From: Saccostrea cucullata
Taxonomy: Eukaryota
Length of the DNA: 64,000 nucleotides
Direction: 5' to 3'
Assembly: GCF_032062105.1 (NCBI RefSeq)
Contig: NW_026931870.1
Coordinates: forward strand, 62,001-126,000
Shown here one piece after another: positions 10,689 to 63,250 of the stretch. Position 1 is the stretch's first letter, and each line of letters begins with the position of its first letter. The notes beneath the pieces were generated by a model. It saw nothing but the letters and a program-made list of their open reading frames with translations, was not told the DNA's origin and made no database searches. The translations under genes and the position numbers were made by a program.

Positions 10689-13600
10689 CTAAGATTCCAT
10701 CTGATTTTCCCGTTTAAGTTTGTTTTGTAAATGTTCATGGATTGTTGCCCTTGGGTCCTTGGAATAAGATGGATGGCTGTAAACTTGATGAAATAATTCC
10801 ACGTCTTTTAACCTTATAAAGACAAAACAGAAAAAAGCTGCAAATGATTGGACAACAATCAATAAGACATTTCTGCACTTCATGCATACATCAAAAAAAT
10901 TGTCAAAATGCATAAATGGTCCAATTTTAAATGTCAAAAGAAGCATATGTCACAATATGCATTTGTACAGTTAAAAATACATATTTTAGTGCCTTTAGTG
11001 CAGACAATGATGCGATAATTCATGAATACTGCTAATAAAGAAATCATTTGTAAATACAATATACGGAACAGACATGTGTAGTGTTAATTCATGATTACAC
11101 CAACAACTCTATATCCTTTGATTGCTCTAAATTTTGAATAAGCCAAATTATGTACACATACAGTATTGTTATATTTTTACCAGAATTGTGATATGCATCA
11201 TATTCACATTTTTTTCAATAAGAGACAAAATGATCTTTTCTTATCTAACTAACCCCACATTAGGCCATCCTTAAAAAAATGTTTGTTTGGAACTGCCGCC
11301 TGAAGGGTTTCAGACATAGGAGGGAGGGAGGGAAATTATTTTTTTTTTTTTTTAATTTAAGATAAATTTTCAATTTTTGTTAAAAGTCTTAGTAAACAGT
11401 AAATACATTTTCTGACTTTTAAAAAAAAAGTATCTACCATTAACAGAAAAACCTAATTTTACATAGATCTGACACTATATTTCAATGTTTTATGTGGTGC
11501 ATGTGATACATGTGATGGGCAAAAAAATTGATTAAATTAAAAAAAATCGTTCTACTTTTGGTCAATAAAATTTTTTTCAGGAGGGGGCATTTCAATAAGG
11601 CGGGAGGCAATTCCAAACAACTTTAATTTTATTTTGGCCTTATATAATTGTTATAAACAAGTTGAAACAAAAATTTTTTTGTTGATTTCACAGGAATTTC
11701 AAAATACAACCATAAAACAGCAAACATACACTTTGGCATGATTAAAAAATTTCTGACAAATTAAATTTCATATTTTACAGTAAAAATTTCAAGCCCAAGC
11801 ATTTTTGCAGTACATGTACATATGTATTGATAAACGTATCACAATACAATATTTTGTGCCAACAAATCGCAATAAACTGGAATATCATTATGAATGGACA
11901 GACCTAGGCATGTTGGATGTCACCATGTTTTACTGAATACTATAATACATTATCTTGACATACGAGACAAAATTAATGGTACTCACATCTGCTTTTGCCT
12001 CTTCTTCTCCTTCAAAATACTACGAGGTTTTTCCTTATTACATTCTCTGAAAAAGAAAAGAATTTCTATTTCTTTTTCTGTTTACACTCTGAACACTATT
12101 CCTATTACACAGGGTTAATGTGGCTCGCATTAACTTCATAGGAAATATGCACAAATATCATTCAAAGGCTCTGCATGAGAAAGAGACAAAAAGAACCATG
12201 ATATTCACCAAAAAAAATAATTTTCACATTACATTTGGAACTTTTCACATGATTTTTGTATGATTTTCACAAAATTAATGAAAACAAAAAATGCTTGAAA
12301 ATCCTGCTAGCCACTTTCCCTGAAAAGGAAACACTTGTAAGTGATCTACTGCTATCGCTAACTATGATCCATCCTTTTTTATGAACAAACATTATTCTAG
12401 TACGCTGTACATGCATAAACATTTTAAGATTATGAATAACCTTGACAATGGGGTAGATATGTTACCACATCTAAAATAAAAAGGTCAGAAAGTCATAGCC
12501 ATATGGTGTCCTTGAACTTGCTTAAATAACATTGACATAGAATGGTATTAATCACAGGTACTAGGCAAAACATTTTGTGTCAAGACTGTGACTCAGGATA
12601 TTTAGAAGACTTCAGACTAGAATTTATATTGATTTAGATTTTATAAAAATTCAACAATACTACCAATTAGTTTTAAAAGGCTTTTCAAATAAGATTCCAT
12701 TCATTGAATCTGTATTGGAAGACATTGTAAAAAGCTACATAACATAAACATGTCCTTGTTTATGTCAAATTGAGGTAATAATTCACGGGCTGGAATCCAT
12801 GTGTAATAACCATGTGTAGGTGGGAGGTTTTTTTATGTACCTGTACTCTTACTTTTTTTTGTGTTGGTCACTTTTGAGCAGCATGTCCAGTGTACGAAGG
12901 GCCTCTCCCAGCAGTCTATGTCCCCCCAGTTTTTTTATATATACATGTATTCTTACTTTTTCTTGTGTTGGTCACTTTTGAGCAGCATGTCCAGTGTGGG
13001 GAGGGCCTCTCCCAGCAATCCTATGTCCCCCACCACAGGGGTACTCTGTTTTCTCTTCTTCTCTTTGGCCGCTTTCTTTGCTGCCTCCACTGCATCCAAT
13101 TCTATCAATAAATCAGACCACTATCAAATGTTCTAATAAGGAATCAGCAGCTTTACTTTATTCCATTTCACACCTGTTGGCAACAGAGCCTCAGAGTAAT
13201 TTCTTGGGAAACAGTTTTATAATTGCACAATATCTAAATAAGTATTTATGTAAAAAGATACCTCTCAAGAAGAAAACAAAAGTTTTATTAAATTATCCCT
13301 ACTTCATCTATCACTACCCTTTGACTTACTTTGCACCAGAAGTTCCCTCCTGAGTTTCTTCCTGTCCTTCTTCTTCAGCTGTAGCCCCTTCAGTGAGGTG
13401 CTAGTGATGGCGCTCTTTGTGTCCCAGTCAGTGGGCAGCTTCTGGGTCAGTTCCTCGGCACTAATCTTCACGCTCTTAAACATGTTACCTGTCACAGCAG
13501 CTACACCGGGATTGGAGGAGGTTTCCATTTCCTAAATATATGTCAACATGTACTACTTTATAGAGTAGATAATTCTTAATCATGTTCAACTATAGCACAC

Positions 13601-37269: not shown

Positions 37270-38810
37270 TTTACCTTACTATAACAGTACAGGTTAAAGG
37301 TTCACTTTAATACTAGAACAGTACAAGTTACAGATTAACTTTATAACTAGAAAAGTACAAGTTACAGGTTCACCATAATAAAAAGGAGTACAAGTTCGTG
37401 ATAATGCTTACACAGTTCAAGTTACAGGTTCATTATATAATTTGAAAGTACAGGTTACACTGGTTCACCATAATACTAAAAGAGTACAAGTTACAAGTTA
37501 GTGATAATACATGAAGAGTACAAGTTGCATTAATTATAATACTAACACAGTACAAGTTTCAGGTTCAACAGGCACGTAGCAACGGGGAGGGGGGGGGGCT
37601 GCCCCCCTTTTTCCCCAACCTTACTTATACATGTACTATACGAAATGTTCATTGAAAGGCTGGTTGCCCCCCTCCCCCAACTATTAGTGATGTATGGAAA
37701 ATGTAGTATAATAATTGGTACTGAAAGTAGTTGGCATTGAAAAAAAGTTGGCCTTCACACACACACACACCATCCACCTCCCACGAAATAGGATTATCGA
37801 CTTTGGGCAACTTTTCTTTTTTCCTTTTTTTTTTTTTTTGCTTGTCAACTTTTTCAGGTAAGTAAATAAAAAAAATTCTCTGGCTGGCCCCGTACTTTCA
37901 AAAACGATACTATGTGGCTGTTCATGATAATGCTACTTGAGTACAAGTTACAGGTTCACCTAACTTAAACAGTACAAGTTACAGGTTCACCATAATACTA
38001 TAACAATGCTAGTTACAGGTACACCTTAATACTTAAAAAGAACAGGTTACATGTTCACCAAAGTATAAACAGAAAACAGTACAAGTTACATATTCACTAT
38101 AGAACTAGATCAGTACAAGTTACAAGCTCGTGATAATACTTAAACACTACTAGTTACAGGTTCACCATAATGCGAGATCATCACAGGTTACAGATTCACA
38201 ATAATGCTAGAACAGTACAAGTTACAGATTCACTATAATGCTAGAACAGTACACGTTACAGGTTCACTATTATGCTAGAGCAGTACAAGTTACAGGTTCA
38301 CATTACTAAAACAGTACAAGTTACAGGTTCTTATAGCTAAAACAGTACAAGTTACAGGTTCATTATAGTGCTAGATTGGTACAAGTTACAGATTCACTAT
38401 AATTCTAAAACAGTACAAGTTAAAGATTCATCAAAATACTAGAACAGTACAGGTTACAGGTTCACTATTATGCTAGAACGGTACACGTTACAGGTTCACT
38501 ATAATGCTAGAACAGTACACGTTACAGGTTCACTATAATGCTAGAAAAGTACACGTTACAGGTTCACTATTATGCTAGAACAGTACACGTTACAGGTTCA
38601 CTATAGTGCTAGATTAGCACAAGTTATAGATTCACTATAATTCTAGAACAGTACAAGTTACAGGGTTCATCAAAATACTAGATCAGTACAAGTTACAGTT
38701 TCACTAAAAATGCTAGATCAGTCCAAGTTACAGATTCACTATGATGCTAAAACAGTAAAAATTACAGGTTCACATTACTAAAACAGTACAAGTTACAGGT
38801 TCATCGTAAT
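37270..38810. repeat. Minisatellite of about 34-bp units (AGAACAGTACAAGTTACAGGTTCACTATAATGCT), interrupted by a MITE
   Basis: Seen directly; units are most homogeneous at 38200-38650. Confidence 0.92.
37569..37920. mobile_element. CAG..CTG-ended MITE inserted in the minisatellite
   Basis: CAGGCACGTAGCA / TACTATGTGGCTG imperfect TIR, G- and C-runs, flanks TTCAA/TTCAT. Confidence 0.6.
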
Positions 38811-41255: not shown

Positions 41256-43611
41256 TTACCTGTAGAGATGGTACAGTGCTTGGGAAATCAGGACAATGGA
41301 TAACAGGACAAAACTCAGCTGATTGTGACTTCCTCCCAACTAAAACAAAATCACAACAAAATCAAACACATGTATTACATTATGTACAAATTATTTTTAT
41401 GGTGTCTGGATAGGACTTCATTTATTTTCAAAAGCTCAACAGCATGTTTTGAATAACACACCATCATGCCATCATCATGCAACACACCATCACCTTAATA
41501 TGCTTACAAACAACACACAGTTGCACTCACATAACTTCACAAAACTCCAAGTTGCTAAAATACAATTTCGCTAAACTTGCCTTCACGCTGACATTCTTTC
41601 AAGAAACACGATGTCACACTAATATAAAACACCCCATCATGCTAACACAATTATACAAAACCATCATTGTGCTTATACAAAAATCACTGTTGTGCTAAAT
41701 TAGGCTAACATAAGATGGTACAGTGCTTGGGAAATAGGCTAACATAACCTTCCACAACACACTATCATGCTGTCACACAACTCACAAACACAACTTTACA
41801 CATGTTTGAGTTAAAGCCATGGCATGTTCTTCGATCTTGTGTTAGCGTGACAGAGTGTTGTTCAATGTTGTGAAAGCAAGATAGCCAGTTGTGTGTTAAC
41901 AGAACTATGTGTTCATTATGTTGTGTATAAGCATGTTTTGTGCCAACTTGTTTTAATTTGTGTGACAGCATGTTGTGATAGTGTGATGGCAAGCTGTGTG
42001 TTAGCACGACGGTGTGTTGTGCAAACTTGTGCTACCGTGATGGCTCAGTGGTGTTTTAGTGCGATGGTGTGTTGGGTGTTAGCATGACAGCATGTTTTTT
42101 TGAATGCACTGTTCAGCCTTTGCAAATGCCCAGGTCTTATTTGGACACCATATATTTTGATTTTAATGCCATATAAATGCTTTTCACAACTCTGAGACTC
42201 AAATATCGCTGAAACTTAAACAAAGTTAAAGTCACTATATTCAAGTTAGGTAGCTTGAATTAAATGAATTAAAGGTTATTAAAGAAAGTAACACTTACTG
42301 GTCACCCTGACAACACATACCGTTGCATAGTAATTACATCTGTCTCCTTGACAACACTCGACACAGTCCCAGTCTCGATACCAGTCCCTCATACATCGGA
42401 ATCCCTTGGCCTGGGCCTCAGCGTCACAGCGAGCCTTTGTCTCACAAGATTTAGAGATGTTATGATACCTCTCACTGACTCTCTGCCAAAACTTAGGCTC
42501 TGATTTAAAAAACCATTATTAAACTCTATACTATGGATAGAAATTTTACAATGCAAATTAACAAATACATGAACTGAATTTCTGATAATTGTTGAATTTT
42601 GTGTCAACTAATATATTTACTTTGTACATGCTGTAGGTGTAATAATTCAGTGAATTATTTACTTTACACTTTTATTTGGTATGAAAACAAGCTTTTTTAG
42701 ATTAAAATGCCTTATGTAAGTAGAATTCAAACTGCACTCATGACCTGTTTATTTTTGCCAATAGAATGAGATACCAAATACCATATGCCCAAGAAAGTGA
42801 ATATTACATCTCTTCTCTGATCCAGATACTTGGAATTTAAAAAAACAAATTTTTCCTTTTTAATTTACACTTACGCTGCCATCGTATTTGTGTTTTGCAG
42901 GCATCCTGTTCTTTCTCACACTGAATGGTGGTTTTTATACATTTGTCTTTATTTGTCCTCTGCCCTAGACATACATAGCATTCCAAAGCAAAACCTGCAA
43001 CAGAAAAACAGCAATTATTTTGGTCAACTAATATAATGATATAGGTGTAATAATTCAGTCAGTTATTTACTTAACACTTTTACAAGGTATGAAAACAAAC
43101 TTTTTCATTTCGCCTTATTGAAGTAATTCTGCACTCATGTGATGCAAATCTCTGGTATTTGTGTTTTACAGGCATCCTGTTCTTTCTCACACTGAATGGT
43201 GGTTTTTATACATTTTTCATAAGTGACTGTAAATATTTATTCAAATAAATATTTTTCATAAGTTTCAAATATTTTTCTTTAATATTTTAATAATAACTTA
43301 CGTAAAATATAATTTATACACAAATCTGATTAATATAGTTTAAATTTAGAGAATTCTTGAAAAGAATAAGTGTCTTTTTAAAAGTCAGTCTGGCACCTTT
43401 TTCAGAAAATCTAAATAAAATATTCTTTCATATTTACTTGTTTTTTAAAATTTGTTTTTATGAGTCAGTCACTTCCGCCATTGACCAAATAAATTTTTAG
43501 ACCTAGCATATTTAACGATTATCAAAGCTTTCAGAACTAAACTAACAGAAATTGTTACTTACACGAACATATTAATCCTAAAAGCCCCAGAAGGACGATC
43601 GTGCTCTTCAT
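41256..43611 (-). CDS. GPI-anchored Ly6/uPAR (three-finger) domain protein, 143 aa; exons 43611-43563, 42994-42875, 42499-42321, 41339-41256
   Basis: Signal peptide MKSTIVLLGLLGLICSCFA, then LECYVC..KDKC..QC..DAC..ISKSC..RC..RC..DCVECCQGDRCN, then hydrophobic tail LSFVLLSIVLISQALYHLYR*. All junctions are GT-AG and in phase. Missed by the ORF track. Confidence 0.92.
41398..42152. mobile_element. Foldback-type MITE in Ly6 intron 3
   Basis: TATGGTGTC.. / ..GACACCATA ends; the CA-rich left half mirrors the TG-rich right half. Confidence 0.65.
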
Positions 43612-44975: not shown

Positions 44976-46426
44976 CTATAGAGGCATTCCAGCAGCCGGA
45001 GACGAGGCGGAGGGCAGGCTAAGTCCGGCAGGATAAGCATAGGACTGAGTGTCATCAAAACCGTACAAAATTAAACCGAACTTCACACTGGGATCCTGGT
45101 GTGTCACCTGGTGCTGTCCCGCACTCACTTCCGCTGAAATGATGAGGTATATGACGTCATTGATGAGCAGAACGTCCACGCCCTCTATTTTTGAGTAAAT
45201 CTTGTTCCCGTCCAGTCTGATCCCATTCTCGTCTTGACTTTTGACAATGATAACAATATAATGGGTCAGGTTAGCTTTGGTCGGGGTGAGGAATTTATAA
45301 TTGTTTGAGTATTGGTCCAGAGAGGGTATAAACAACATAAAGGGACTAATGGTAAGAGGTGAGGCCGTCACAATGACGGGTTCAGTGCTGGAGCCGTGGT
45401 AAGGGTTGGCAGCACCAGCCGTGATCCGGGAACCTCCTCGCCTTTGTAAATTACTGGAAAGATTGACGTTTTTGCCCTTTGTCGAGATCACGTTGTCGGC
45501 TCCCAGATTATTATAGTATATGTTGATGTAGGTAGAATTAAACACAGGAGGAGTGATGAAATCGGTGCCGAGGCTGCTGGATGGAGGGATAAATTCAATC
45601 ATCTGGTTAAACTTGGCTCTCCTACTGGACGGAGACGCGTAGTACTGACCCGAGATTACCCCAACAGGTTTGTTAGAGTACACCCGTGTACCAAGCAGGT
45701 AACCGCTGGGGGTTTGCAGCTGCGCAGTTTGTCCCGCCGTCAGATTGAATGTAATGTTTTCTCCCATTCCATAGTAAACTGATTCAAAAGTGACGCCACC
45801 CCAGAATCCCTTTGTGACACTCACTTCCGTGTCGGCTTCCGTTGCTACCACAGCTACCGTGCTGTTGTACTGGGTGGCAGTATAGTACTCCTTACCCCAG
45901 AAATCAACAGGGATAGCCTGAAATCCCTCCCCCGCACAACAGTCGTCACCAGAATGGCCATACACATAGATGGGGAAATCAGATTCAATAATGATTCCTT
46001 TATCCTCTCTCTTGTTCCCATTCAGGACTATTTCTGGAGGAAGTGAGACCACAGCGCCCTCGTTAGCTCTCACCTGCAGCACTCTATCAATACCAGGAAA
46101 ACCGGAGGTCAGTCTCACTTCCGTGTCCTGTAGAGTTGATATCAGAAGTTCTGCCCTGGTCACCGGGCTATTCCCATCCGGAAACATAACCACATACCGC
46201 GTACCTCCATGACCTAAAATGGACATTTTTGAAATGTATATAAAATATATACTTAAAAAAACATTAAAATTCAAAGTTTACAATTATGAGAAATATAAAG
46301 GAAAGGCCCCCTATAAAGAAAAAAAAATCAATTGTCAATAAATCATTAGATACCTGTAGATTGTCCCTTGGTATAAAGCTGGAAAAATTGCACAAATAAC
46401 AAACTGAAAATAATTTTACAATTCAT
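44976..46426 (-). CDS. Secreted IgGFc-binding protein N-terminal-domain protein (FCGBP-like), 436 aa; exons 46426-46354, 46213-44976
   Basis: Signal exon MNCKIIFSLLFVQFFQLYTKGQST|G spliced in phase 1 to a long exon with KGIIIESDFPIYVYG, AIPVDFWGKEYY, GTRVYSNKPVGVISG, EFIPPSSSLGTDF, PSLDQYSNNYKF and FGLILYGF...SYAYPAG. Confidence 0.9.
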
Positions 46427-47744
46427 CTTATAGCGACACTAAATCTTCTGTTCTCGTAAATTTTGGAATAGTCTATGCTTATTTAAGAGATATTCATTAA
46501 ATGCATTTAAGATATGTTAATGATATGCGTCAATATGGCATTTTTAATAAGGCTCATTGTTTTAAGACTTTGTGGATGACTTTTGAAGCGTAGGAAAGTA
46601 GCGGTTTTTCCAGATATAGACCGATGACATATTGCCTGAAGCAAAGAAGTTATCAATCAGTCTATAATCATGATTGGGATTACGAAATTTTCTATTGGCA
46701 AGGTGAAAATATTGCTAAACGCGCACGTTTTTTCTTCGTCAAATGTAACAAGCCAATCAAAATCCACGAAACGATGGTATAAAACAAAGTTGTATGATGA
46801 ATTGTGTGGTTTTTCGGTATAAAGAAGAGAATGATACAGAAATCATGTACTATAATATTTATTGCATAACTTGGTACATCAGCTGATGATTTCTACGTAG
46901 GGAGGCTGGACGGGGGTATAGGCGTGATCCCGGGGGGCGAGGACTCTAAGATCAGTGTATTGTCTACCACTCATATTGGCGTAAGGGTTAGGCGATGTTT
47001 TCCCGCTCATTTCTGTATAGTCCTCACTGAAAAATTAGAGGTACATAACTACATTTGTATATTTAGAATTATTCCATTATCGTGTACACCGAAGTCTTCA
47101 GCAAATATTCCTACACTGAAAACATTTTTTGTAAATGATGGGTTACAAATATTAACATGACTTTATTGGGTTTAAAAGCTAACAGTGTAACAAACTATAT
47201 TTTTTCCTCTGTAAAACTAAAAAAAAAGTGTTTATGAAACACTGCTGCCCCCGTATGGCAGCTTACTAGTATGTCGAGGATTAAAATTTCTCAAATGCAT
47301 GTCAAACTCCAAAGGTCAAGGTCAAAATTGGTACCCTATTTAGAGAAAGGCCTTGTGGAGTCTAAATTAATATTGTTAATTAATTTCCATAAAAAAAGTG
47401 GATATTATATGTTAAAATGGCCTATTCATATGTATAACCATCATGTAAAATCAGATAAAAGATCACCTAATATATGACTGTATCCCTGTATCCAGAAATC
47501 TTTAATCAAATAACATAAGAATTCTTATGTCTCAAGATTGCATATTCTCTATGAAAATTCCAACCCAATTCCAGATTGTCGTCCTAAATCAGCACATTGA
47601 ATCAACACAATATACCCAATATTACAATTGTCTTTTGGCCCTACATCTAAAGTAATAGCCCATTCAATTTCTCCCTAATCCTTTTAACCACTTCTATGTA
47701 CCAGTATGAACCTTTTTGATCTATTCCTGTCCTTGTTGTCCCTT

Positions 47745-48800
47745 ATCTACAGGTAAATAACTCACCTGACCTTTGCGTGCCCCGGTGTCTCTTCTGCTCC
47801 TGTATATACAGGTAAATAACTTACCTGTCCTTAGCGTGTCTCGGTGTCTCTTCTGGTTCTGTATATACAGGTAAATAACTCACCTGTCCTTGGCATGCCC
47901 CGGTGTCTCCTCTGGTCCTGTATCTACAGGTAAATAACTCACCTGTCCTTAGCGTGTCTCGGTGTCTCTTCTGGTCCTGTATATACAGGTAAATAACTCA
48001 CCTGTCCTTGGCATGCCCCGGTGTCTCCTCTGGTCCTGTATCTACAGGTAAATAACTCACCTGTCCTTGGCATTCCCCGGTGTCTCTTCTGGTCCTGTAT
48101 CTACAGGTAAATAACTCACCTGTCCTTAGCGTGTCTCGGTGTCTCTTCTGGTTCTGTATATACAGGTAAATAACTCACCTGTCCTTGGCATGCCCCGGTG
48201 TCTCCTCTGCTCCTGTATCTACAGGTAAATAACTCACCTGTCCTTAGCGTATCTCGGTGTCTCTTCTGGTCCTGTATCTACAGGTAAATAACTCACCTGT
48301 CCTTAGCGTGTCTCGGTGTCTCTTCTGGTCCTGTATCTACAGGTAAATAACTCACCTGTCCTTAGCGTATCTCGGTGTCTCTTCTGGTTCTGTATCTACA
48401 GGTAAATAACTCACCTGTCCTTAGCGTATCTCGGTGTCTCTTCTGGTTCTGTATATACAGGTAAATAACTCACCTGTCCTTGGCATGCCCCGGTGTCTCC
48501 TCTGCTCCTGTATCTACAGGTAAATAACTCACCTGTCCTTAGCGTGCCCTGGTGTCTCTTCTGCTCCTGCATCTACAGGTAAATAACTCACCTGTCCTTA
48601 GCGTGCCCTGGTGTCTCTTCTGCTCCTGTATCTACAGGTAAATAACTCACCTGTCCTTAGCGTATCTCCGTGCCTCTTGTGATCCTATATCTACAGGTAA
48701 ATAACTCACCTGTCCTTGGCGTGCCTCGGTGTCCCTTCTGATCCTGTAACTCACCTGTCCTTAGCGTGTCTGGGTGCCTCTTCTGGTCCTGTATCTGCAA
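47745..48800. repeat. 59-bp minisatellite (about 17-18 units) derived from a 40-nt exon with its splice sites
   Basis: Unit on the minus strand: TTATTTACCTGTAG|ATACAGGACCAGAAGAGACACCGAGACACGCTAAGGACAG|GTGAG. Confidence 0.93.
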
Positions 48801-51800
48801 GTAAATAAAAAAATTAACAGCTCTACCAGGGCCTAGTAAGTTTGTATATTTGTGATTTAATACAATGTAGGGCACTTTATTTATTTCATTTTGTACACAT
48901 GTCAAAAAATCTTTATTCAAGCCAAAGATTCTACGTAAAATTTGTCATTCATAAAACTTTTAAATATATACGTTGCTTTAGACTGCCTACCGCTTATGCA
49001 AAACAACAGATCGATTCAGCGATGTAGAGAATGACGTGTCAAAGTAATACAATTTGTGAATGTTTGATAGAAAGAAATAGATTGCACACTTTCTTAATTT
49101 AAGAAAATAGACTGGAGACTTTGCCTACTTCGTCTGTATAACTCTGTGCTGGTCGATTCCTATTTACTGGCGTCCCAGATGGCATGACTATGTTGGGCCA
49201 ACGTTGGCGCACAGTTGTTGACTGCGTTGGTCCAACGTTGGCAACCTAACGTTGGCCCGATGCAAGTTTGCTCATCGGCCCTACGTTGGCCCAACATGTT
49301 GGCCCAACGTTGGCACAACGTTAGCCTATTTTATTACAGCATTTGGTCAACGTTGGCCCAACAATGGCCCAACGTCAATTACCAGCAGTGATTGTATCAA
49401 CAAAGGCCCAACACTGGCCCAACGTACTTTTTTGTTGGCCCAACAATGGCCCAACGTCCGTTCACCAAAATACCATCGGTTGCTCAATGGGGGTCCAGTG
49501 TCCGGTACCTGTGTTGGTCAAACAATGGTCAATTATTATTTTACGGATAGTTATTTTTTCAACGTAGTGCCAACAGAGACCCAACCTATATAAATAATGA
49601 TTTCCATTCAAAATTAAGCCATCTTGACAAAAATTAATAACTAGATAATTTTGACAATGAGGCAAAAGAAAAAAGTGATAAACTGTACAATTTATTTGTT
49701 AGTTTCTAACAAATTCTGTTAAGTTTGCTTCAATATTATAACAATAATTAAACAAAAACATTTGCCAAAGCTTACAGAGTTTAAGAATAAATAATAATAC
49801 GTCTTGCTTTCACGTTTCTGCCTTAAAATGTATTCAAAATGTCGAATTATACTCCACACTTCCTCTGCATCACTTGCATCTACGACTGACTGGATTAGGC
49901 ACACCGTCAAATCTAAAACGTTTAATATAATGAGGCAGTTGAAATTTCAATTGCAAACACAATCTTCTTTCAAACATCATCTAACATCAATTCCAGAACC
50001 ATCCCTTTGTTCACAAAAACTACTAAAATCCCATAACTATAGAATATAAAGGAGCTTAAAGTTCACAAGTTGAACACAACTTGGCAATATTTGAATTTCA
50101 ATTTTTATCAATCCCTCTTTTCAGTAAAATATTGTTTAAAGACACAAATAGTATAATCCAAGAGCATTTGAAACGTCCTTCTTTAGTCTTGTTCGGATTG
50201 CAATTGTTTTTCACATATTCACTTTTTTCCCATTTTCTTCCTCCTTCTTCATTGTCATCAATGAACCAGTATGAATTTCTATATCTGCTGCAAATTAATG
50301 CACACTGACACAGCACATTTCCCCGTCTAAGAACAATATATAGCTGTTAAGAAAAGTGAATATATTAATTATATTTGAAAATTGATGAAATATTTATTTT
50401 TTTGATTAACTTATGATGCACTTAACCCTGTTTAAATACAAAAGAATTTACCATTAAACACACCTTACCATATATACTGAAATTTTCTTATCTATTTCAT
50501 TTCTCGTCATGATATACAGTGTAAGATATTATGTCTTTCATATAAACTGAATCATTTTATAAAAGAAGTAGCTATAGTTTTCAAATATAATAATACTTTA
50601 CTTACATTTCTTTTAGGACTTCGCCGTTAGCCGTTGTGTGCACCAAATTTTTAAAATCCCGTTAACCTTACTGTAACTTCCTCAGTCTGCATTTTGAGTT
50701 TATCAGCCAGCTGTGAGTAATTATCTTGACAGCTCTCCACATATTTTGGTGTTTTAAATTTGCTGCGACTCTTTCAGTTTTAGCGACTCGCCTAACTTTT
50801 GTTTGAATGCAATTATAAAGCTGGCTGGGTTATCTTGATTTATGCGTCATTCACATCCTGTCCCTGGGAACTTTTAGTTTCCATATTATGCTAAGTTTTA
50901 TTCGGTCGTTTATATTTTACCGGGTAAACTAATGTAAGAAAATCTTTTATTTAGTCTCCTTTTATAATGACTTTTCGTTAATTGTATACGAGAGAAACAA
51001 ATATTACAATTACACTCAAAGTTTAAGGTTAATTAAGATTTCAAAATTTATAAACAGACACTATATAGAGAAGATTTTTTGAGAAGTGGATACTAATAAC
51101 AGGAAAGTATAATTGTCATCAATAAACCATAGTGAGTTTAGTCTCAGTGCTATGGAAGAAATTAATGATCTTTTCATAAAAGTCTAGTGTATAACAAACA
51201 CTGGGCCAACATTGGGCCAACGTAACGCTCCCAACTCATGCACATCATCCTTTAGTTTGCAATCTAACTGTTGGCCCAACGTTGGCCCAATGTACTTATT
51301 CTAACTATAAAAGAACACTAAAAACAAACACTCAAGCTTACATTGGGCCAACGTTGGGCCAACATACTGCAACCAGATTAAGTTGACAGTTTGGTTAAGG
51401 TTGCATTACAAACGTTGGGCCAACAGTGGGCCAACATTGAACCCCAACTTCATTAGAAAATATAACGAAACGAAATTAGTTGATGTTGGACCAACGTTGG
51501 GCCAACGTAAGAAACCCAACATGGTTGGGTACTAAAGAGGTTATTCACATGGTAACGTTGGTCCAACGTTGGCCCAACATTGTCTTCCCAACGCCAACTA
51601 AAGACCAACCGTACAACCTTTAGCCAACGTTGGCCCAACGTAGTCATGCTGTCTGGGGTGTGCCTGCTTTGCTATTTTTCCTACTGTCTACAACCAGTCA
51701 CAATATATCGCGCATAAGCTTCTTTACAAAATCTTGATATACTAGCATATTTTTTATGATCCGTAACCGAAGATTCGGGGTATATAGTTAATGCCCTGTA

Positions 51801-61900: not shown

Positions 61901-62764
61901 TTGTGACCTTGACTGTGTCTTATATGCTAAAAATAGCTTTTTTGAACCTTCACCATAACTTTTGAACCATGAAAGATAGAGACTTCATATTTGGTATGCA
62001 TACTTCACTAATCAAGATCTTTCAAATGAGACCAAGATCAATGACCTTGTGACCTTCACTGTGACCTTTATGCTAAAGATATATTTTTTAAATTTGTTGT
62101 CGCTGGGCGCATTGTGTTTTACAAACACATCTTGTTTTGTCCTGTAAACTGCCCAGGTTTGTCTTTGAAGATTTGTCTAGCTGCTACTTTACGCTCAGAT
62201 TGCTATTTTAACAAAGTTACATACTATAATCATAAGTCTACAATACATGTCAGTATAAGTCGTGAGAAAAGTTTAATCTTTTGGCGACCCTCTCAACAAA
62301 ACGTCTATTTAAGAACATTGCAATTGAAATATTTTTCTCTCGCTGTTATTGATGGCATTGCTCGCTACACAGATATGCCAAATGAAGAAACAAATCTTGC
62401 ACGATGCTGTATATACATGCTGTCCAGAAGACATTGAAATGCATGTATATTATTTGAATTCTGATAATATTCCAGCAAATGACTCTTTTAAAATGTTGAC
62501 TCGTTTTCAACCAGGGGGTCAGACCCACTAGGATAAAAAAAAACTCATTACAGATTTTTAGAAAACATTACAATTGATTTATAGCTACTCACACAAATCA
62601 GACATGTTGGATCCAAAAATCAACTGTATATAATGCCATCTTAAGCTAAAAGTCAAATAATGATTGTTTTGTTGTAGTTGCGGGGAGGAAGCATACGTAT
62701 GAAGAATGTCATCCAGAGGATGAAGACGAGAAACCAGACCCAGGGGCACAGGAACAGTACAAAG
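58966..62764 (+). CDS. Putative internal exons of an unidentified gene: 58966-59016, 59582-59605, 62678-62764
   Basis: Three short purine-rich segments, each with a polypyrimidine-AG acceptor and a GTAAG/GTAGG donor, of 51, 24 and 87 nt. Two reading frames stay open across all three, so the frame is unresolved. Confidence 0.45.
59842..60987 (+). mobile_element. Second copy of the 33419-34746 HINE, inserted into a hairpin MITE (59800-61015, 8-bp TSD GTAGCTCT)
   Basis: Same 5' end, satellite units and 3' hairpin as the first copy. MITE arms CACAGGCACTTGTTTCG / CGAAACAAGTGCCTGTG lie on either side. Confidence 0.88.
61405..62137 (-). mobile_element. HINE-like element with about 4 satellite units of about 155 bp
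   Basis: Hairpin GGATCGAAAGATCC plus (TGTC)n at the left, repeated CAATGACCTTGTGACCTT units, CTTGTT terminus at the right. Confidence 0.75.
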
Positions 62765-63250
62765 GTAAGAATTACCACCGAAATTATTACCAAAAAGTTC
62801 AAAGGTACCCAGGGGCACAGGAACAGTACAAAGGTAAGAATTACCACCGAAATTATTACCAAAAAGTACAAAGGTACCCAGGGGCACAGGAACAGTACAA
62901 AGGTAAGAATTACCACCGAAATTATTACCAAAAAGTACAAAGGTACCCAGGGGCACAGGAACAGTACAAAGGTAAGAATTACCACCAAAATTATTACCAA
63001 AATGTACAAAGGTACCCAGGGGCACAGGAACAGTACAAAGGTAAGAATTACCACCGAAATTATTAAAGGGGCACAGGAACAGTACAAAGGTAAGAATTAC
63101 CACCGATATTATTACCAAAATGTACAAAGGTACCCAGGGGCACAGGAACAGTACAAAGGTAAGAATTACCACCGAAATTATTACCAAAAAGTACAAAGGT
63201 ACCCAGGGGCACAGGAACAGTACAAAGGTAAGAATTACCACCAAAAAGGA
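62738..63250. repeat. 69-bp minisatellite (about 7-8 units) copying an exon end, donor and intron start
   Basis: CCCAGGGGCACAGGAACAGTACAAAG|GTAAGAATTACCACCGAAATTATTACCAAAAAGTACAAAGGTA repeated. Confidence 0.92.

What the first reader, a model, noticed from the sequence alone, without database searches (positions are those of the whole stretch)
47745..48815. A micro-exon amplified about 17 times with its splice sites: possible mutually exclusive exon array
Seen: the rightmost unit is a normal-looking 40-nt exon with a strong acceptor (TTTTTTTATTTACTTGCAG) and a GTGAGT donor, in frame after the TM exon at 52516-52403. Each downstream 59-bp unit repeats acceptor + exon + donor, separated by only 19 nt (GTGAGTTATTTACCTGTAG). 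Copies vary in coding sequence (DTGPEETPRHAKD, DTGPEETPGHAKD, DTGAEETPGHAKD, DTEPEETPRYAKD), and several have the AG mutated to AT. Established: 19 nt is far below normal metazoan intron size, so adjacent copies cannot be joined. Inference: the array could give alternative cytoplasmic tails or splice decoys whose number varies between alleles, or it could be inert.
Basis: partly seen in the sequence, partly recalled or inferred. Interest (0 to 1): 0.72.

Follow-up and report, generated by a model that had tools for sequence, protein, structure and literature searches.

The report
Oyster minisatellite copying a whole exon
In an oyster gene for a small membrane protein, one short exon that the reading frame depends on is repeated 18 times head-to-tail with its splice signals; the spare copies are predicted to fold over and hide those signals, yet database gene models suggest at least one spare is sometimes used instead, which would make this a likely snapshot of "choose-one" splicing being born.

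Summary
Observation confirmed: 18 donors at a 59-bp period, one locus in the genome. The 40-nt exon is real: it is the only in-frame bridge from the TM exon to a tyrosine-motif last exon, a related species splices such an exon, and two orthologous proteins carry the segment once. The gene is Saccostrea cucullata LOC134233801 (119 aa, adaptor-like). Its three database isoforms differ only here: X2 uses copy 1, X1 an internal copy (4, 6 or 11), X3 an internal copy through an acceptor 6 nt downstream. New: each internal donor-acceptor junction is predicted to form an 8-bp hairpin (-9.6 kcal/mol); copy 1's acceptor stays more open. Best reading (0.5): a recent whole-exon 'mirage' minisatellite, copy 1 the default, internal copies mostly masked but leaking one at a time. 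Main rival (0.33): only the first slot is spliced and X1/X3 are mis-mapped alleles or relatives. No same-species reads were seen. No docking site and no coding selection, so not a Dscam-type array. The scan noted one-sided (donor-only or acceptor-only) arrays in other genomes; my searches found no whole-exon case.

The parts
52754..52811 (-). Coding part of the ATG exon (19 aa, no signal peptide), ends in phase 1
   Evidence: matches the N-terminus of P0001-P0003
52403..52516 (-). Transmembrane exon, 114 nt, phase 1 to phase 1; single copy in the genome
48795..48815 (-). Acceptor of copy 1: T7 run, CAG, branch candidate TTAAT at -20; the most open acceptor of the array in folding
48755..48794 (-). 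Copy 1 of the 40-nt exon (DTGPEEAPRHAKD), phase 1 to phase 2; used in database isoform X2
48710..48749 (-). Copy 2, lacking the 14-nt acceptor part, so no junction hairpin forms behind donor 1
47761..48704 (-). Units 3-18: 14 nt acceptor + 40 nt exon + 5 nt donor; two interleaved unit types (Gly and Arg type); AG to AT in copies 7, 12, 15, 17, 18
48592..48631 (-). Copy 4 (DTGAEETPGHAKD): first downstream copy with intact AG and a CTAAG branch candidate at -26; candidate for isoforms X1 and X3
   Evidence: copies 6 (48474-48513) and 11 (48179-48218) give the same peptide, copy 5 (48533-48572) also fits X3
48575..48595 (-). Example of the predicted junction hairpin (donor 4 with acceptor 5), 8 bp, -9.6 kcal/mol; the same stem is predicted behind donors 2-17, and 7 bp behind donor 18
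47727..47760 (-). Decayed terminal unit: acceptor part intact, shortened exon part, no donor
46879..47026 (-). Last coding exon, starts in phase 2; carries YTEM, YANM, YTDL, YTPV, YVEI and the stop
46858..46863 (-). AATAAA poly(A) signal candidate; the four laid contigs end at 46851-46870

Best explanation
A 59-bp minisatellite has repeated a frame-bridging 40-nt coding exon of a small oyster membrane protein 18 times with its splice signals; copy 1 is likely the default exon, the other copies are predicted to hide each other's splice sites in hairpins, and at least one of them likely leaks through as a one-at-a-time alternative. Shown: array anatomy, single locus, need for one copy (or 1+3n) to keep the frame, splicing of such an exon in a relative, single segment in two orthologous proteins, and three database isoforms that differ only here. 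Inferred: (1) origin by a tandem duplication that took 14 nt of acceptor and 5 nt of donor, then slippage or unequal exchange, probably helped by the near-palindromic junction; (2) neighbours cannot be joined across 19 nt; (3) each junction hairpin buries a donor and the next pyrimidine tract, while copy 1 keeps an open T-rich acceptor; (4) when an internal copy is used, the branch point would be the CTAAG in the copy before it, and with the hairpin folded only 4 nt separate it from the normal AG against 10 nt from the +6 AG, which would explain isoform X3; (5) the products are near-equivalent linker variants, so the array is likely tolerated rather than selected.
For: Frame: skipping ends the protein at 44 aa from the TM exon start against 100 with one copy; all 77 of 77 double inclusions tested lose the tyrosine motifs. 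Exonic: contigs of 4 of 4 laid runs stop at the last-exon acceptor; in the 2 whose loose letters were shown they continue as PEEAAGHAKD. Orthologues from S. echinata and O. edulis have one such segment and one cluster member each. Isoforms: X2 = copy 1, X1 = copy 4/6/11, X3 = +6 acceptor of copy 4/5/6/11; all 15 genome-wide matches to an exon-end pattern lie in this array. Internal acceptors have 9 of 12 pyrimidines at -14..-3, as copy 1 does, against 10 of 12 in the TM and last exons; 10 of 16 have CTAAG at -26, including every copy that fits X1 or X3. Hairpin: -9.6 kcal/mol, z -2.7, 3 of 200 shuffles as good; copy 1's junction -2.0; the two letters that separate all internal acceptors from copy 1's take the stem from -5.2 to -9.6, and only 2 of 594 possible two-base changes do as well. 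The +6 site is annotated only with the internal type. One-sided arrays of this kind are known and usually use the original site (PMC1557585, PMC3087553), and one lies 14 kb away.
Against: No same-species junction read was seen; X1-X3 are computed models. The relative's exon is equally far (5 of 30 letters) from copy 1 and copies 4 and 5, and the S. echinata peptide scores 42 against copies 4, 5, 6, 9, 11, 15 but 37 against copy 1, so foreign reads or protein guides could have placed X1. Copy 1's donor is not clearly more open in whole-array folding (all nine bases unpaired 0.004 against 0-0.019), and at spans of 100-200 nt the local hairpin falls to 0.01-0.51 as other registers take over, though the sites stay paired. 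U1 pairing (-12.2) is stronger than the hairpin (-9.6). Fewer variable columns in the stem is not significant (p 0.12). That copy 1 is the major form is not measured; X1 is the internal type.
Confidence: 0.5

Rival explanations
1. Only the first slot is ever spliced; the array is inert. X1 and X3 come from reads of other alleles or related species, or from protein guides, whose single exon resembles the Gly-type copies and so aligned to copy 4, 6 or 11. A version of this: unequal exchange moves spare copies into the first slot, so the array varies the exon between alleles, not within a cell.
For: Ties (5 of 30 mismatches to copy 1, 4 and 5; S. echinata peptide prefers internal copies); the Gly codon is shared with the relative, so a Gly-type first exon may exist in other alleles; hairpin masking of internal sites; F7 and amphioxus arrays use the original site; in human NPIP/morpheus genes transcript differences were put down to structural polymorphism (PMC2812944).
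Against: X3 lacks 6 nt, which a protein guide would not produce and which fits the internal context; no +6 form of copy 1 is among the 3 of 3 cluster members; no second haplotype or paralogue is assembled; internal acceptors match the TM exon's in pyrimidine content.
Confidence: 0.33
2. The array works as a splice decoy or dosage switch: donors or pairs of copies are used so that the frame is lost, giving a membrane-anchored protein without tyrosine motifs, in an amount that depends on array length.
For: Reading past donor 1 gives K-D-R-stop; non-adjacent copies are 64 nt or more apart (78 nt within the regular part) and all 77 double inclusions truncate, with stops late enough that decay may be escaped (escape is inference). 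All 18 donors keep GT.
Against: No truncated isoform appeared among proteins of 65-223 aa or in the cluster; donors are predicted to be paired; F7 pseudo-donors do not compete.
Confidence: 0.1
3. A selected, regulated mutually exclusive array in which many copies are used to diversify the cytoplasmic tail (up to about 20 peptides from 40- and 34-nt forms).
For: No in-frame stop in any copy; splice parts vary less than exon parts (2 of 19 against 15 of 40 columns, p 0.04); AG-to-AT copies keep an in-frame +6 AG.
Against: No stop among 18 alleles has probability 0.46 by chance; 6 synonymous of 18 is near the 22% expected; the contrast falls to p 0.10 without CpG columns; the longest complement in the flanking introns (10 and 9 nt) is at background; the segment is poorly conserved between species; only two exon types are annotated.
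Confidence: 0.07

Closest known systems
Amphioxus 'mirage' minisatellites (Adh3, globins BflGb6/BflGb9, TnC, PGBD5; PMC3087553 and PMC3902484, passages read; the original Adh3 paper not seen)
   Same: Minisatellite-like tandem copies of an exon-intron boundary with AG/GT signals, units 10-160 bp, homogenised interior with divergent edges, splicing largely undisturbed.
   Different: The described units span one boundary; here each unit holds the whole exon with both sites, so each is a potential exon; database isoforms use an internal copy; junctions are predicted to self-pair.
Human F7 intron 7 37-bp VNTR (PMC1557585; abstract and Discussion read)
   Same: First unit is the authentic site; downstream identical donors are functional but normally silent.
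   Different: Donor only. The authors found no structure to explain silence and invoked oriented scanning; here a donor-acceptor hairpin is predicted and each donor has its own acceptor.
Mutually exclusive exons from tandem duplication, enforced by steric interference (donor to branch point under 50 nt) or frameshift (PMC5740500, passages); Dscam docking/selector arrays (PMC7404189, section 4.2)
   Same: Same length and phase, homologous copies, too close to join, length not divisible by three.
   Different: Copies are 83-100% identical units of an unstable minisatellite, encode an unconserved linker, show no coding selection and no docking site; read-level criteria untested.
Schistosoma SmPoMuc exon-2 genomic repeats (PMC2576457, passages)
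   Same: A micro-exon with flanking intron repeated up to about 20 times, under concerted evolution.
   Different: SmPoMuc units are about 1 kb with a 27-nt in-frame exon and are included additively; here units are 59 bp and only one can be included.
Transmembrane adaptor proteins LAT/NTAL/LAX/PAG (PMC3342071, passages), for the host protein
   Same: Short outer part, one TM segment, non-catalytic tail with tyrosine motifs (YxN, YxxM, YxxL/I/V).
   Different: No detectable homology (no Pfam match at cut-off; best Atlas score 0.87); no CxxC; only three oyster species found.

Membership tests
Mirage / splice-site minisatellite | Tandem minisatellite whose unit spans an exon-intron boundary and repeats splice signals | tested here: met
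   59-bp unit with acceptor, exon and donor
Mirage / splice-site minisatellite | Terminal units diverge, interior turns over in blocks | tested here: met
   copies 1-3 and the decayed last unit diverge; Gly-type plus AT-type pairs recur (6-7, 11-12, 14-15, 16-17)
Mirage / splice-site minisatellite | Only the original site is used | tested here: inconclusive
   models use copy 1 and an internal copy; no same-species reads
Mirage / splice-site minisatellite | Length varies between alleles | not testable with these tools
   one haplotype only; no match in metagenome contigs
Mutually exclusive exon cluster (criteria of PMC5740500) | Homologous neighbouring exons of like length and phase | tested here: met
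Mutually exclusive exon cluster (criteria of PMC5740500) | A constraint against joint inclusion (steric or frameshift) | tested here: met
   19-nt spacers; 77 of 77 double inclusions lose the frame
Mutually exclusive exon cluster (criteria of PMC5740500) | Junction reads from each exon bridging the others | tested here: inconclusive
   no same-species RNA run was listed; only database models
Dscam-type array | Docking site complementary to selector sequences | tested here: not met
   longest perfect complement 10 nt upstream, 9 nt downstream, at background; G-U or bulged pairings not searched
Dscam-type array | Copies conserved across species and under coding selection | tested here: not met
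   orthologues have one isoform with one segment; substitution pattern near neutral; orthologous genomic DNA not seen
Transmembrane adaptor proteins (TRAPs) | Short outer part, single TM, non-catalytic tail with tyrosine motifs | tested here: met
   hydrophobic peak 30-48; four tyrosines kept in three species
Transmembrane adaptor proteins (TRAPs) | Phosphorylation by Src/Syk kinases and SH2 recruitment | not testable with these tools
   needs experiment
Transmembrane adaptor proteins (TRAPs) | Homology to a named TRAP family | tested here: not met

The most novel reading that the evidence does not exclude
A minisatellite has built a working multi-copy mutually exclusive exon array in one step: the 19-nt spacers block neighbours, the frame punishes pairs, and each junction hairpin acts as a built-in lock that also shifts acceptor choice, with no docking site; array alleles would then set which linker variants an oyster's signalling adaptor can make.
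Probability: 0.25. Interest if true: 0.72.

Novelty: new variant of a known kind. Interest (0 to 1): 0.5.

Why it matters
Mutually exclusive exons are thought to arise by tandem exon duplication, but how fresh duplicates avoid wrecking the transcript is rarely visible. Here 18 copies carry distinguishing letters, so reads can be assigned to copies, and the locus offers a natural test of position, branch point, steric block and RNA structure in exon choice. It also suggests a simple reason why some splice-site minisatellites are tolerated: the junction made by the duplication can mask itself. If only copy 1 is used, it is one more mirage in an uncharacterised oyster gene and a warning about annotation in repeats.

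Tried and rejected
RNA run search listed 7 runs with 5-7% of words, none on record as RNA and none of the window's species as far as laid: no RNA holder listed, no evidence on expression either way. Four of the 7 were laid, on the last exon and copy 18 only; their micro-exon piece was not placed on copy 18. The 5' ten letters of the relative's exon and the TM junction were not seen. No second haplotype or paralogue. No match in metagenome contigs. No orthologue outside three species. Pfam and Atlas gave no family. Docking-site search negative; coding selection not detected. The O. edulis column was cut out of register and is ignored. A possible 47114 exon was dropped: laid contigs give no cover there and join 47026 directly to the micro-exon. 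Assembly artefact rejected as unlikely: 15 distinct units among 17, no N. Paper searches found no whole-exon minisatellite with alternative use or self-masking; the library lacks most subscription papers and I read no supplements. PMC10078293 and PMC12783039 (passages) added little; the latter mentions exon duplicates absent from transcripts. A note of mine says 11 copies have CTAAG; one search shows 10. No structure or complex prediction was run.

Full report
Observation. The array is there. TRF reports 47744-48748, period 59, 17.0 copies, 90% matches. On the minus strand 18 donors run from 48755 to 47766; each regular unit is 14 nt of acceptor, a 40-nt exon and 5 nt of donor, which leaves 19 nt between copies. 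Copy 2 lacks the 14-nt acceptor part. Five of copies 3-18 have AT for AG. Seventeen full units hold 15 distinct sequences, in a Gly type and an Arg type, and Gly-plus-AT pairs recur, as expected from block-wise turnover. The array, the TM exon and the last exon each occur at one locus in the own genome.

The gene. The last exon matches one protein at 100%: LOC134233801 of Saccostrea cucullata, 119 aa. Its coding exons are 52811-52754, 52516-52403, one array copy, and 47026-46879. The TM exon ends in phase 1 and the last exon starts in phase 2, so the 40-nt exon is the bridge: skipping ends the protein after 44 aa counted from the TM exon, against 100 aa with one copy. The protein has no signal peptide, one hydrophobic segment (peak 30-48), a basic stop-transfer patch and five tyrosine motifs, four of them kept in the S. 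echinata and O. edulis orthologues. That is the architecture of transmembrane adaptor proteins as defined in PMC3342071 (passages), without homology to a named one; the adaptor role is inference. The array encodes only the linker before the tyrosine tail, which is poorly conserved.

The segment is exonic. Four of 7 listed runs were laid on the last exon. They are about 94% identical there, so they come from a relative. In 4 of 4 a contig covers the last exon and stops at its acceptor; in the two whose loose letters were shown these read PEEAAGHAKD in frame. Both orthologous proteins have the 13-residue segment once and have one cluster member each. I did not see orthologous genomic DNA, so that the array is confined to this lineage is inferred.

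Which copies are used. The three members of the protein cluster differ only at this exon: X2 has copy 1, X1 has the peptide of copies 4, 6 or 11, and X3 has the same type shortened by two residues, which needs the AG 6 nt inside copies 4, 5, 6 or 11. None has two copies. These are computed models; from recall, such alternative models normally rest on transcript alignments, but I could not see the reads. The caution is real: the relative's exon is 5 of 30 letters from copy 1 and also from copies 4 and 5, and the S. echinata peptide scores higher against copies 4, 5, 6, 9, 11 and 15 (42) than copy 1 (37). X3 is harder to explain by a protein guide.

Could internal copies work? Their acceptors have 9 of 12 pyrimidines at -14..-3, like copy 1, and close to the 10 of 12 of the gene's constitutive acceptors, but lack copy 1's upstream T run. 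Ten of 16 have a CTAAG branch candidate at -26, supplied by the exon before; copy 4 is the first such copy, and every copy that fits X1 or X3 has one. Neighbours are 19 nt apart, far under the 50 nt from donor to branch point used as the steric limit in PMC5740500 (passages). Non-neighbours (64 nt or more) could be joined, but 77 of 77 such pairs lose the tyrosine tail, and reading past donor 1 stops after one codon.

A hairpin at each junction. Donor n and acceptor n+1 are predicted to form an 8-bp stem over donor -4..+4 and the pyrimidine tract, -9.6 kcal/mol, z -2.7. Copy 1's junction gives -2.0 because copy 2 lost its acceptor part. The two letters that separate all internal acceptors from copy 1's take the stem from -5.2 to -9.6; 2 of 594 two-base changes do as well. 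This points either to template-switch perfection of a near-palindrome, to selection for masking, or to copy 1 escaping from an ancestral stem; direction is unknown. Copy 1's acceptor is the most open in local folding (0.063 against 0.005 or less). Limits: copy 1's donor is not clearly more open; the local stem has probability 0.32-0.96 at a 50-nt span but 0.01-0.51 at longer spans, where other registers pair the sites; U1 pairing (-12.2) is stronger than the stem; lower variation in the stem is not significant. With the stem folded, the branch candidate is 4 nt from the normal AG and 10 nt from the +6 AG; stems between branch point and acceptor shorten the effective distance and hide cryptic acceptors in yeast (bioRxiv 10.1101/2022.07.22.501175, passages). 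That would explain why the +6 site is annotated only with the internal type. This step is inference across distant organisms.

Selection. There is no in-frame stop in any copy, but that has probability 0.46 for 18 alleles; 6 of 18 are synonymous against 22% expected; splice parts vary less than exon parts (p 0.04; p 0.10 without CpG columns); no docking-like complement exceeds background. Nothing requires an adaptive array.

Comparison. The nearest kind is the splice-site minisatellite: amphioxus mirages (PMC3087553, PMC3902484; passages) and the F7 VNTR (PMC1557585; abstract and Discussion), where the original site is used. Earlier notes of this scan led me to these papers and list one-sided arrays in other genomes; a donor-only array with 8 donors lies at 62678-63246 of this window, so 2 of 11 arrays checked here carry repeated donors. 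Minisatellites at human exon borders can give alternative patterns (PMC2812944, passages). SmPoMuc repeats whole micro-exons but in 1-kb units, additively (PMC2576457, passages). The difference here is a whole exon per unit, one-copy frame logic, models that use an internal copy, and predicted self-masking. Paper searches found no such case; the library is incomplete and the original Adh3 paper was not seen.

Verdict. A real, probably recent whole-exon minisatellite; new variant of a known kind. Default copy 1 with leaky internal use 0.5; inert with mis-mapped models 0.33; truncating decoy 0.1; selected multi-way array 0.07. Interest 0.5, decided up or down by one long-read experiment.

Noticed in passing
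window 62678-63246 (+): An 87-nt probable exon whose 3' end and AAAG|GTAAG donor are repeated 8 times in a 69-bp minisatellite: a donor-only mirage in another gene; junction folding weak (-3.3).
   Followed up: partly
window 44976-46426 (-): Two-exon gene right behind the array gene: probable signal-peptide exon (46426-46354) and one large exon with an IgGFc-binding domain (PF17517, E 3.5e-41); one laid contig covers 46352-46445.
   Followed up: partly
window about 41300-43610 (-): Multi-exon gene for a small secreted cysteine-rich protein resembling the Ly6/three-finger pattern (label recalled, not tested); its second exon and intron flank appear duplicated about 250 nt upstream at 43060-43230.
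   Followed up: no
window 49180-49500 and 51200-51650: Clusters of palindromic GGCCCAACGTT-type repeats in the intron upstream of the array, probably two parts of a non-autonomous transposon.
   Followed up: no
window 12828-13031: Two-copy 104-bp duplication that includes a T-rich tract and AG followed by purine-rich sequence; may be an acceptor-side duplication.
   Followed up: no
window 37277-38803: 34-bp minisatellite, about 26 plus 9 copies, without AG|GTRAG donors.
   Followed up: no
window 47825-48454 (-): Four of the five AG-to-AT acceptors follow a unit that has also lost the CTAAG branch candidate; probably one linked haplotype amplified as a block. Copies 3, 7, 8 and 10 would add a tyrosine to the linker.
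   Followed up: partly
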